A stretch of 64,000 bases of DNA from Laetmonice hystrix. Lineage: Eukaryota. A program made the position numbers. This document shows, one piece after another, positions 41,254 to 44,200 of the stretch. The stretch lies in NCBI GenBank assembly GCA_965235115.1, contig OZ249437.1, forward strand, positions 51,026,001 to 51,090,000, written 5' to 3'. Every line of letters begins with the position of its first letter. Within the stretch, counting starts at the first letter, position 1.

Positions 41254-44200
41254 AGAGAGACGGGGAGAGAGGGGAGAGGGGGAGAGAGGGGGGGGGGGAG
41301 AGAGAGAGACGGATGATAGAAACGGCTCTTTATCTGGGAAAAGATATTCGTATGAAAGGACAGTTCGGACCACAAGGAGACTTAGGCATGTGCGCATCAA
41401 CCCATCAAACAAAGTTGTTTTCATGTCAGAGACATAATTACTGTTGAGTGTTGTAAAACTGCACGGAAAACATTGCTCTATCAGATCCATGTGATACAGC
41501 CAGGGTGTTCGACATATTTTGAAAGTTTCTTTTTCATTACAGTTATATTACTGAACCATTTATCTATAATGTGAATGCGTGTGAACTTAAGAATACTAAT
41601 ACTACACAGGATCATTCCTTTTGAAAATAAACCGTAAGATTATTGCAGAACTAACATTCAGGTTCTGCCTTCTTTATCTTCAATATTAAATTTGTTAATT
41701 CCTCGTAAATGATAGTTTGAACATCAAGGGTATGTGGACATTGCGTTCTTCTCCCGCCTATTGTATAATAGGAATGCGAGATTGCCATAGATGCCATTCA
41801 CACTGACTTGGCAATAGTTCCAATCTACCAATTTGACCACCAGACGTTCCATAGCAAGGAAACTCTCGGAGGGGACAGCTGCTTGGATCTTTCACGACTT
41901 ACATATACATTGTACATGATACAATCTATATTATAGTAGATAACTAGACTAGTTTGAACCATAAACCAGGGAAAGTCTCCAGTCGGCTCTGGCTTTCTGT
42001 GGAAATGTCCAACGATATAAACAATACTGTCAAGTTACCGGAAGCGAAACTCAGATATACAGGTTGTGTAGCCATTGTGTATACCTAATTACAACCAGAT
42101 CTAATCAGAGACGTGTTAGCAAGCAAGTTGGTGAACCTCGAGCTATCATTAAATGTCACAATATATACGTCACACCGGAAAAAGTACGCCAGCCCAAGGG
42201 TCTTTACTGGATGTTAAAACTTCTGAGACAGCTTCGTCATTATTAGCCTGTTTACACGTTGCATTGTGAATTATACAATTTCACCTGACTAATATGAAAT
42301 ATGTTTAACTTCAGCTGGTCTGTGCCGGTTCCCCGTGGATTGGCAAGGGCGCTGGTACCAAAGCGGTCTGGGAGAAGTAGTAATACGAAATCACACATTC
42401 ACCCAAAAAGGTCTCTGTCACGAACATCATAGGGACTACTACCTCGTCGAAAACAGGTACGTAAAAAGAGGCTATTTTAATCATCAAGAAATCCCCCCAT
42501 TCATTGTCGCCTTTGGCGGTATTGGGGTTATATACTAACCCCATTAGGGTAGAAAATGATCAAAGGGCTGACACGAAGTGGGCTTTCATATAGATGGAGG
42601 TTATAATGATATAGGCTGGGGAAGCACCTGGGTGTTTGATAAAACATAATGGTCCCAAGGGGCCTAATATCTGCAGGGATCATCTATACAAAGGCATTAG
42701 CAAGGAGCTCAGCACTGAAAGCAAAGGTTAGCTATAGAGGTTGAGATCCCTGACACGAGGAAATAAATACGACAGTTTATTAATGGACCACTGGCAAGGG
42801 TTTGGGTATGGATGAACTAAAGCGCATCCACTTTGGCGTGCCAGTGATCGATATATAGCTTTGTGGATATATTTTAATATTCGGCGCTACAGATGAAACT
42901 GGATAGGCGCGTGTGCTGATACTGGGTGATCTATCGTTGGACGGGTCGCATCCGTGGGACCTATCCGTCTAGGACGCCGAATGAAACAGTAGCATATAGA
43001 GGATTAACAAAACCGCTCTGTTCGTATTAATCATCCACACTGTACGTTCCCCAGGCACCTCATTGATCGTGCCTTGGTGGGGCACTGCAGCACCAAGTCA
43101 GTGTAATGGGTATATAAGTATAAAGGCACTCGTATACTCTCTGCCTTCCCGACCCGTCGGAAGGCCTCTGTGAACTGGTGTATGAGCGATGGGTCTATAT
43201 ACTCCGGCTTTATCAACTTCTTCATCGTTCTTATAATGCATCGCTTTGCTGTGATTATCTCTGACGGATACCGCGGTAGTACATGCCCCCACGACGGGGG
43301 CTGAGCCATGCTGGGTTTGCTCCAGGACAGACACCGATATTTTGCTGTTAATTTTACACAATTACGGATAGAAACCCGGAAACTTGCCCGGCTCAGTTTT
43401 CTTGCATGGGCGTGCCCGAGAGACTGGTTTTCTACTTTTGCTGGGGAAACGGTAGCCGAGCCACAGACCGGAGCTTTTCTTATGTCGGTCCAAACCCTTG
43501 CTGGGGAAACGGTGGCCGAGCCACAGACTGGAGCTCTTCTTATGTCGGTCCAAACCCTTGCTGGGGAAACGGTAGCCGAGCCACAGACCGGAGCTTTTCT
43601 TATGTCGGTCCAAACAGTTGCTGGGGAAACGGTGATCGAGCCACAGACTGGAGCTTTTCTTATGTCGGTCCAAACAGTTGCTGGGGAAACGGTAGCCGAG
43701 CCACAGACTGGAGCTCTTCTTATGTTGGTCCAAACCCTTGCTGGGGAAACGGTAGCCGAGCCACGGACCGAAGCTTTTCTTATGTCGGTCCAAACAGTTC
43801 CTGGGGAAACGGTGATCGAGCCACAGACTGGAGCTTTTCTTGTGTCGGTCCAAACAGTTGCAGGGGATACGGTGGCCGAGCCACAGACTGGGGCTTTTCT
43901 TATGTCGGTCCAAACAGTTGCAGGGGATACGGTGGCCGAGCCACAGACTGGGGCTTTTCTTATGTCGGTCCAAACAGTTGCTGGGGAAACGGTGGCCGAG
44001 CCACAGACTGGGGCTTTTCTTATGTCGGTCCAAACAGTTGCTGGGGAAACGGTGACCGAGCCACAGACTGGAGCTTTTCTTGTGTCGGTCCAAACAGTTG
44101 ATGGGGAAACGGTGGCCGAGCCACAGACTGGAGCTTTTCTTATGTCGGGTGAAACAGTTGATGGGGAAACGGTGGCCGAGCCACAGACTGGAGCTCTTCT

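What the first reader, a model, noticed from the sequence alone, without database searches (positions are those of the whole stretch)
42315..42456. Conserved exon of an uncharacterised invertebrate extracellular protein family hidden among chance ORFs
Seen: a canonical branch point, AG and GT enclose 46 clean codons with the pattern C-R-F-P-x-x-W-x-G-x-W-Y-Q-S-G and a second Cys (KGLC). Knowledge (from memory, unverified): this is the first domain after the signal peptide in DUF7044/DUF7042/DUF7043-type (PTHR22255-like) proteins of arthropods and lophotrochozoans, whose function is unknown. The phase-1 intron before it fits a separate signal-peptide exon. Inference: the SGLGEV variant looks more like the mollusc/annelid members.
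Basis: partly seen in the sequence, partly recalled or inferred. Interest (0 to 1): 0.65.

Follow-up and report, generated by a model that had tools for sequence, protein, structure and literature searches.

The report
Lone exon of uncharacterised invertebrate protein

Summary
Window 42315..42456 (+) is a genuine protein-coding exon. It is bounded by ttcAG| and |GTACGT. It has 2 nt of a split codon, 46 full codons and 2 nt of the next split codon, so the intron before it is phase 1 and the one after is phase 2.

The peptide matches Pfam DUF7044 above the curated cut-off (35 bits against 27, E 1.7e-8), covering profile positions 3-48 of 94. A HMMER scan of 1.84 billion proteins gave 113 relatives at E<=1e-3. 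The closest named one is from an annelid, at 68% identity.

All 6 family-invariant columns inside the exon are kept. The donor position is conserved: 91 of 102 unspliced-type relatives carry the read-through signature of a GT at the same spot.

Full-length relatives are 552-637 aa proteins with the order DUF7044-7042-7043-7045. By my inference they have a signal peptide and a GPI-like tail.

No other exon of the gene is detectable in the window. The gene therefore has very long introns, or this is a relic. Function is unknown and no papers were found. RNA-seq evidence could not be checked. Verdict: a new member of a known, uncharacterised family, of modest interest.

The parts
42315..42456 (+). 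Coding exon of 142 nt: CT of a split codon, 46 codons, then AG of a split codon. It encodes the first half of a DUF7044 domain, which is four beta-strands and two conserved Cys.
   Evidence: Sequence and translation. Pfam PF23071 at 35 bits against a cut-off of 27, profile positions 3-48 of 94. Family HMM E 5.7e-16. All 6 of 6 invariant columns are kept. AF2 model of the exon peptide has pLDDT 95.2, with strands at 11-15, 19-23, 32-38 and 41-45.
42285..42314 (+). 3' splice region of the upstream intron: branch-point-like CTGAC and CTAAT, a weak pyrimidine tract, and the acceptor AG at 42313-42314.
   Evidence: This is the only AG between the in-frame stop (42290-42292) and the Cys codon. The motifs alone are not above chance.
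42457..42462 (+). 5' splice site CAG|GTACGT (phase 2).
   Evidence: The Pfam match in the 81-aa read-through ORF stops at this point, at residue 55 and profile position 50 of 94. Of 102 unspliced-type relatives, 91 show the GT read-through signature at the homologous position.
21998..22067 (+). Candidate signal-peptide exon, weak and inferred only. It has an ATG at 21998 (others at 22007 and 22022), a hydrophobic core, and a phase-1 donor TTG|GTAAGT. Its last base G with the CT at 42315-42316 would make an Ala codon.
   Evidence: Controls gave 1 such site here against 2 in five control strand/phase classes, so it is not significant on its own.
58345..58431 (+). Unresolved weak match to the next family segment (H..QYK..YC). 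It has the wrong phase to follow the exon directly and lacks the family's CxxC.
   Evidence: 11.9 bits, E 0.0061 among 620 downstream plus-strand ORF pieces. E 0.04 among 4007 six-frame pieces, and 3 of 40 simulated windows reached this score. Sequence read.

Best explanation
The stretch is a genuine internal coding exon, still under constraint, of a gene of the DUF7044/7042/7043/7045 family. It is the first exon that encodes mature protein.

Shown here: it encodes the N-terminal four beta-strands and two conserved cysteines of the first domain. It is spliced through a phase-1 acceptor at 42314|42315 and a phase-2 donor at 42456|42457, and the donor position is shared across the family.

Inferred:
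- A separate upstream exon supplies the signal peptide. One candidate lies about 20 kb upstream.
- The rest of the domain and the other three domains lie beyond a downstream intron of more than 21.5 kb, outside the window.
- The product would be an all-beta, disulfide-rich extracellular protein built as an internal duplication (A-B)x2.
- It would be held on the cell surface by a GPI anchor, because relatives end in a hydrophobic tail with no cytoplasmic part.
- Most likely it acts as a surface binding or recognition protein rather than an enzyme.

The source is most likely a lophotrochozoan, probably an annelid.
For: Homology
- Pfam DUF7044 hit above the cut-off, and the same hit in the read-through ORF ending at the donor.
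- 113 relatives at E<=1e-3 and 10 at E<=1e-10.
- 68% identity to Lamellibrachia satsuma LSAT2_007801.

Constraint
- No stop or frameshift in the exon, and 6 of 6 family-invariant columns (C, F, P, W, G, C) are kept.
- The exon peptide folds at pLDDT 95.2 into the same four strands as residues 26-61 of the Lineus model.

Conserved donor
- Of the 113 relatives, 3 were dropped as not alignable at the exon end, and 8 continue into the next family segment.
- Of the remaining 102, 30 stop one residue past the boundary and 61 have F/L/S/Y/C/W at +2.
- That is 61 of 72 against a background of 0.35, p 5e-18.

Architecture of relatives
- Domain order DUF7044-7042-7043-7045.
- Internal duplication by hhalign: B vs B' 98%, A vs A' 81%, cross-controls <=3%.
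- 18 of 21 have a hydrophobic N-terminus. 19 of 21 have a hydrophobic C-terminal stretch with <=8 residues after it.
- About 25 invariant Cys.
- The AF2 model is all-beta, with pLDDT 81.6 and pTM 0.75.
Against: - No other exon of the family is detectable anywhere in the window, on either strand. This was tested by tblastn with 11 long relatives, by a full-length family HMM, and by per-domain HMMs on the 21.5 kb downstream. The only exception is an 11.9-bit match in the wrong phase.
- The closest relatives, of the 'RDY[YF]L' type, are all single-exon fragments or truncated models. None of them shows the downstream domains, so the full architecture is extrapolated from relatives that are only 37-46% identical in this exon.
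- The pyrimidine tract is weak.
- The signal-peptide exon is not established.
- There is no transcript evidence.
- The GPI anchoring and the binding role rest on sequence features of relatives. No predictor or experiment supports them.
Confidence: 0.72

Rival explanations
1. This is an orphan exon. It would be a relic of a decayed gene or of a partial duplication, still open by chance or youth, and no longer part of a functional transcript.
For: It is the only family exon in 64 kb. The surroundings are rich in minisatellites. None of the 10 longest non-repeat ORFs has a Pfam hit. There is a possible degenerate, out-of-phase scrap of the next segment at 58345-58431.
Against: The exon is intact, both splice sites are canonical, and all 6 invariant residues are kept. 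It is 68% identical to a relative from a different annelid genus, which neutral decay over such a distance would not leave. In relatives the same exon is also found alone in ORF fragments, so isolation by long introns looks like the family's normal state.
Confidence: 0.15
2. This is a real exon of a gene with a different, perhaps much shorter, architecture. The 'RDY[YF]L' subfamily might not carry the canonical second half of DUF7044 or the other three domains.
For: Among the 113 relatives, none of this subtype continues into the C[YF]x[CS] segment. The 8 that do continue are all of the more distant 'NKY/KF' type. The only annotated model of the subtype is 87 aa long and continues after the exon with unrelated sequence beginning with Ser, which a simple GT read-through would not give.
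Against: Half of a beta-domain is unlikely to fold alone. The exon ends in the middle of the Pfam profile, at position 48-50 of 94. The conserved phase-2 donor implies a following coding exon. Short models are what gene predictors produce when introns are long.
Confidence: 0.1
3. This is a chance open reading frame with chance splice-like flanks.
For: Open AG..GT intervals are abundant, with 10472 of them, and there are 674 open stretches of >=46 codons.
Against: Pfam E 1.7e-8, family HMM E 5.7e-16 over all 3198 ORF pieces, 113 database relatives, and no Pfam hit for the overlapping minus-strand ORFs.
Confidence: 0.01

Closest known systems
Pfam DUF7044-DUF7042-DUF7043-DUF7045 proteins, for example Lineus longissimus LOC135486291 (P0068, 552 aa), Crassostrea virginica LOC111119802 and Centruroides vittatus
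   Same: The exon aligns to the start of DUF7044 and keeps every invariant residue (C, F, P, W, G, C). It sits in the same position directly after the N-terminal hydrophobic leader, has the same four-strand structure, and ends at the same intron position.
   Different: Only 17-21 of 46 residues are identical to most of these full-length proteins, and 11-14 of 44 to two bivalves. The window shows only profile positions 3-48 of 94 of the first domain and none of the other domains. It belongs to a distinct 'RDY[YF]L' subtype.
Lamellibrachia satsuma hypothetical protein LSAT2_007801 (P0002, 87 aa; annelid)
   Same: It is the best named relative, at 68% identity over 96% of the exon, and is also tagged PF23071. 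The shared similarity ends at the same ...LVEN boundary.
   Different: At 68% identity it is either a different species or a paralogue. That model is itself truncated, has one residue fewer before the Cys, and continues with unrelated sequence.
Bacterial bilobed surface lipoproteins TbpB/LbpB and the related haemophore (structural lead only)
   Same: 17 of the 41 listed Foldseek rows for the Lineus model are of this kind, with a best E of 2.6e-4 and probability 0.75. Both are all-beta four-domain proteins made of a duplicated two-domain unit. Both are, or are inferred to be, lipid-tethered to a cell surface.
   Different: TM-scores are only 0.13-0.15 and rmsd exceeds 20 A. There is no sequence similarity: the family profile against PDB sequences gave 0 hits at E<=1. 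The kingdoms differ. The exon fragment on its own finds nothing, with all 8 hits at E>=7.5. This is not evidence of membership.

Membership tests
Pfam DUF7044 (PF23071) | Score against the family HMM at or above the curated gathering cut-off | tested here: met
   35.0 bits against a cut-off of 27, E 1.7e-8, exon residues 3-45 on profile positions 3-48 of 94. The read-through ORF scores 34.8 bits.
Pfam DUF7044 (PF23071) | Family-invariant residues of the first half (Cys, Phe, Pro, Trp, Gly, Cys) | tested here: met
   6 of 6 columns that are invariant in 19 full-length members are identical in the window peptide.
Pfam DUF7044 (PF23071) | Second half of the domain (CxxC ... H.N..Q.K ... C), profile positions about 50-94 | tested here: inconclusive
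   Not found in the window at a convincing score. The best match is 11.9 bits at 58342-58431, without the CxxC and in the wrong phase. The segment may lie beyond the window's end, 21.5 kb downstream.
   No match at E<0.7 for the B, A' or B' domain HMMs on the plus strand downstream, and none in six frames. The window may simply be too short.
DUF7044-7042-7043-7045 protein family | N-terminal signal peptide directly before the first Cys | tested here: inconclusive
   It must lie on another exon. The candidate at 21998-22067 is plausible but not above background. No signal-peptide predictor is available here.
DUF7044-7042-7043-7045 protein family | Shared intron position (phase-2 donor one codon after the ...EN end of the exon) | tested here: met
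   The window has CAG|GTACGT there. Of 102 unspliced-type relatives, 91 carry the GT read-through signature.
PANTHER PTHR22255 | Match to the PANTHER family HMM | not testable with these tools
No PANTHER library is available.
TbpB-like bilobed handle-plus-barrel lipoproteins | Superposable handle and 8-stranded barrel domains in two lobes | tested here: inconclusive
   Foldseek E 2.6e-4 and probability 0.75, but TM 0.13 and rmsd 24 A. No domain-level model could be compared.
Lipocalin/calycin (considered because of the G-x-W-Y motif, which is recalled from memory) | Match to a lipocalin-type profile or fold | tested here: not met
   No lipocalin family appears among the Pfam hits at E<=10 for the exon or for 4 full-length relatives. 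None appears among the 41 listed Foldseek rows.

The most novel reading that the evidence does not exclude
The exon marks a large, essentially unannotated subfamily (the 'RDY[YF]L' type) of the DUF7044-7045 proteins. Among 1.84 billion representative proteins, every close relative was a single-exon genomic fragment or a truncated model. These genes may therefore be systematically missed because of giant introns. Their products would be GPI-anchored, duplicated two-domain (A-B)x2 all-beta surface proteins. In architecture these converge on bacterial TbpB-type ligand-capturing lipoproteins, which would make them an unrecognised class of invertebrate surface receptors or scavengers.
Probability: 0.15. 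Interest if true: 0.55.

Novelty: new member of a known kind. Interest (0 to 1): 0.3.

Why it matters
The case shows that a single 142-nt exon can be picked out of 64 kb of repeat-rich, otherwise ORF-free invertebrate DNA by motif alone.

It also flags a gene that automatic annotation is likely to truncate. The nearest annotated relative is itself an 87-aa stub.

The family is widespread in protostomes, cysteine-rich, probably surface-anchored, and has no functional study that I could find. A correct gene model is the first step toward expression and binding studies. The find does not open or settle any long-standing question.

Tried and rejected
- Downstream and upstream family exons. I ran tblastn with 11 long relatives, a full-length HMM on 3198 six-frame pieces, and four per-domain HMMs on 620 downstream pieces. 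Nothing convincing was found.
- The 58342-58431 match. I examined it by eye and against simulated windows. It is left unresolved and probably arose by chance. It lacks the CxxC, and the frame does not fit a phase-2 continuation.
- Signal-peptide exon scan. 436 ATG-to-GT phase-1 candidates were found. Six passed loose filters, at 3 distinct donor sites, and one passed strict filters. The controls show this is not significant.
- Lipocalin idea. It came from the recalled G-x-W-Y motif and was dropped.
A 'near'-length homologue search found nothing.
- ESM Atlas. No usable hit for the Lineus first domain or for the exon peptide (best score 0.89, no family).
- Family profile against PDB sequences: 0 hits at E<=1.
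- Foldseek with the 46-aa exon model: 0 hits at E<=0.001.
- Minus-strand ORFs over the exon: no Pfam family.
- The ten longest non-repeat ORFs of the window: 0 Pfam families.
- Rfam gave 0 hits and tRNA search gave 0.
- Literature: 3 full-text searches on the DUF names, the Pfam accessions and six gene identifiers each returned 0 papers.
- The bacterial/archaeal genome-contig scan and the phage, plasmid and E. coli collections were not used, because they are irrelevant to an animal gene.

Full report
**What is in the sequence.** At 42310-42314 the + strand reads ttcAG, and at 42457-42462 it reads GTACGT. Reading from 42317 gives 46 stop-free codons (P0001). The upstream intron is therefore phase 1 and the downstream intron phase 2. 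An in-frame stop lies at 42290-42292. No ATG follows it, and the only AG before the Cys codon is at 42313-42314. If this is coding, both the acceptor and its phase are forced. Branch-point-like CTGAC and CTAAT lie 27 and 23 nt upstream, and the pyrimidine tract is weak at 56% Y.

**Is it more than chance?** The splice-like frame is not. The window has 674 open stretches of >=46 codons. It also has 10472 AG..GT intervals of 120-199 nt that are open in some frame. The homology is far above chance:
- Pfam DUF7044 (PF23071) matches at 35.0 bits against a curated cut-off of 27, E 1.7e-8. Peptide residues 3-45 lie on profile positions 3-48 of 94. DUF7043 is a sub-threshold second hit.
- In the 81-aa read-through ORF, the match stops at residue 55, exactly at the GT. 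The two overlapping minus-strand ORFs match nothing.
- A family HMM that I built from 21 full-length relatives scored this ORF at E 5.7e-16 among all 3198 six-frame pieces. The next best was E 1.1.

**Relatives.**
- The word-indexed search found one longer relative: Lamellibrachia satsuma LSAT2_007801, 87 aa, 68% identical, tagged PF23071.
- The exhaustive HMMER scan of 1.84 billion representatives found 113 proteins at E<=1e-3, of which 10 were at E<=1e-10.
- Most of these are short, and their similarity ends where the window's exon ends.
- Six of them (552-637 aa) carry DUF7044-DUF7042-DUF7043, and five of the six also carry DUF7045.
- A search with the Lineus longissimus protein P0068 gave 16 proteins at E<=1e-5. 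They come from nemerteans, bivalves, a gastropod, a scorpion and stick insects. Every one that carries a name is called 'uncharacterized' or 'hypothetical'.

**Conserved residues and intron position.** I added the window peptide to the 19-protein alignment A1. It keeps all 6 columns that are invariant within the exon span (C, F, P, W, G, C). It shares 30 of 46 residues with the annelid protein. With 17 of the 19 full-length proteins it shares 17-21 of 46, and with the other two (Ruditapes, Dreissena) 11 and 14 of 44. It shares the gap-free GL-GE form of the nemertean, oyster and mussel rows, whereas the arthropod rows have one extra residue.

An unspliced GT donor after the second base of the next codon predicts one of two outcomes in read-through ORFs. 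The codon after that one starts with T, giving F/L/S/Y/C/W, or it is a stop. The 113 relatives break down as follows:

| Group | Number |
|---|---|
| Dropped, not alignable at the exon end | 3 |
| Continue into the family's next segment (spliced proteins) | 8 |
| Remaining unspliced-type relatives | 102 |
| - end one residue past the boundary | 30 |
| - have F/L/S/Y/C/W at +2 | 61 |
| - other | 11 |

That is 61 of 72 against a background of 0.35, p 5e-18. The donor position at 42456|42457 is therefore a family feature.

**Structure.** The exon peptide was modelled with 62 relatives as its alignment. It folds at mean pLDDT 95.2 into four strands at 11-15, 19-23, 32-38 and 41-45. This is the same pattern as residues 26-61 of the Lineus full-length model, which has pLDDT 81.6 and pTM 0.75 and is all-beta.

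The family protein is an internal duplication. hhalign gives 98% for DUF7042 against the DUF7045 region and 81% for DUF7044 against the DUF7043 region, while the four cross-controls give <=3%. Pfam's own cross-hits agree.

In 18 of 21 full-length relatives the N-terminus is hydrophobic. In 19 of 21 the protein ends in a hydrophobic stretch with at most 8 residues after it. By established knowledge of GPI signals, this is the pattern of a GPI-anchored ectoprotein. I did not run a predictor, so this is an inference.

Foldseek of the full-length model against the PDB gave TbpB/LbpB/haemophore chains in 17 of 41 listed rows. The best was E 2.6e-4 with probability 0.75, but TM was only 0.13-0.15. 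I treat this as a lead only. The family profile finds no solved relative by sequence, and the 46-aa model alone finds nothing.

**The rest of the gene.** No other family exon is detectable in the window.
- Per-domain HMMs on the 620 plus-strand ORF pieces downstream gave one weak hit, at 58342-58431 (H..QYK..YC), with 11.9 bits and E 0.0061.
- Over all six frames that hit has E 0.04, and 3 of 40 simulated windows reached its score.
- It lacks the family's CxxC, and no acceptor puts it in the phase needed after the exon. I leave it unresolved.
- Upstream, the best signal-peptide-like exon candidate is 21998-22067, with a hydrophobic core and the donor TTG|GTAAGT in phase 1. Control strands and phases give similar sites at a comparable rate, so it is only a candidate.

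A joined model therefore remains untested.

**Surroundings.**
- The ten longest non-repeat ORFs have no Pfam family.
- There is no Rfam family or tRNA.
- The window carries many minisatellite arrays.
- One N run (10445-10578) was left untouched.
- Nothing suggests a human origin. The only coding match is to a family seen here only in invertebrates.

**What stayed unchecked.**
- Spliced reads, because no read data are available.
- The PTHR22255 label, because no PANTHER library is available.
- Three full-text searches found no paper naming these DUFs, Pfam accessions or gene identifiers. The library lacks most subscription journals, and supplements are closed, so a mention in a supplementary table cannot be excluded.

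**Verdict.** This is a true, conserved exon of an uncharacterised protostome surface-protein family, probably in an annelid-like genome, and it is isolated by very long introns. It is a new member of a known kind. Interest is modest. The main practical value is a gene that annotation pipelines are likely to truncate.

Noticed in passing
window 43438-44221: A 60-bp minisatellite of 13.1 copies with 92% matches lies 1 kb downstream of the exon, inside the presumed intron. It creates long repeat-made ORFs on both strands (409 aa and 329 aa) that are not genes.
   Followed up: partly
window 54852-56522 and 57248-58167: Two large minisatellite arrays: 51 bp x 32.6 copies and 30 bp x 30.7 copies. 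The second lies in the kilobase with the window's highest CpG observed/expected ratio, 1.71. Both give long artefactual ORFs.
   Followed up: no
window 8403-8617, 14950-15405, 16382-16712, 25065-25778, 33754-34120, 35729-36000, 37238-37470: Further minisatellites with periods of 37-113 bp and 92-99% matches. The window is unusually dense in tandem arrays and shows no transposon-like ORF.
   Followed up: no
window 58342-58431: A short ORF whose H..QYK..YC resembles the family's next conserved segment, at 11.9 bits. It is on the right strand and in the right order, but in the wrong phase and without the CxxC. It could be chance or a degenerate scrap.
   Followed up: partly
window 21998-22067: A signal-peptide-like mini-ORF with a good start context (aggaggATGG) and a strong GTAAGT donor in phase 1, in a stretch of somewhat higher G+C (0.51-0.56). 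It is a possible first exon, either of this gene or of another.
   Followed up: partly
P0002 (Lamellibrachia satsuma LSAT2_007801), residues 68-87: The only annotated close relative continues past the shared exon end with Ser and a basic tail unrelated to the family, then stops at 87 aa. It is probably a mis-predicted or truncated gene model.
   Followed up: no
relatives P0032, P0065, P0078, P0099: Four unspliced-type relatives read R-Q after the exon end rather than R followed by a residue from a T-initial codon. This would fit a GC rather than a GT donor at that intron.
   Followed up: no
window 10445-10578: A single run of 134 N. It was left as it is.
   Followed up: no
window 4493-4656 and 41220-41309: GA dinucleotide microsatellites of about 82 and 46 copies.
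   Followed up: no
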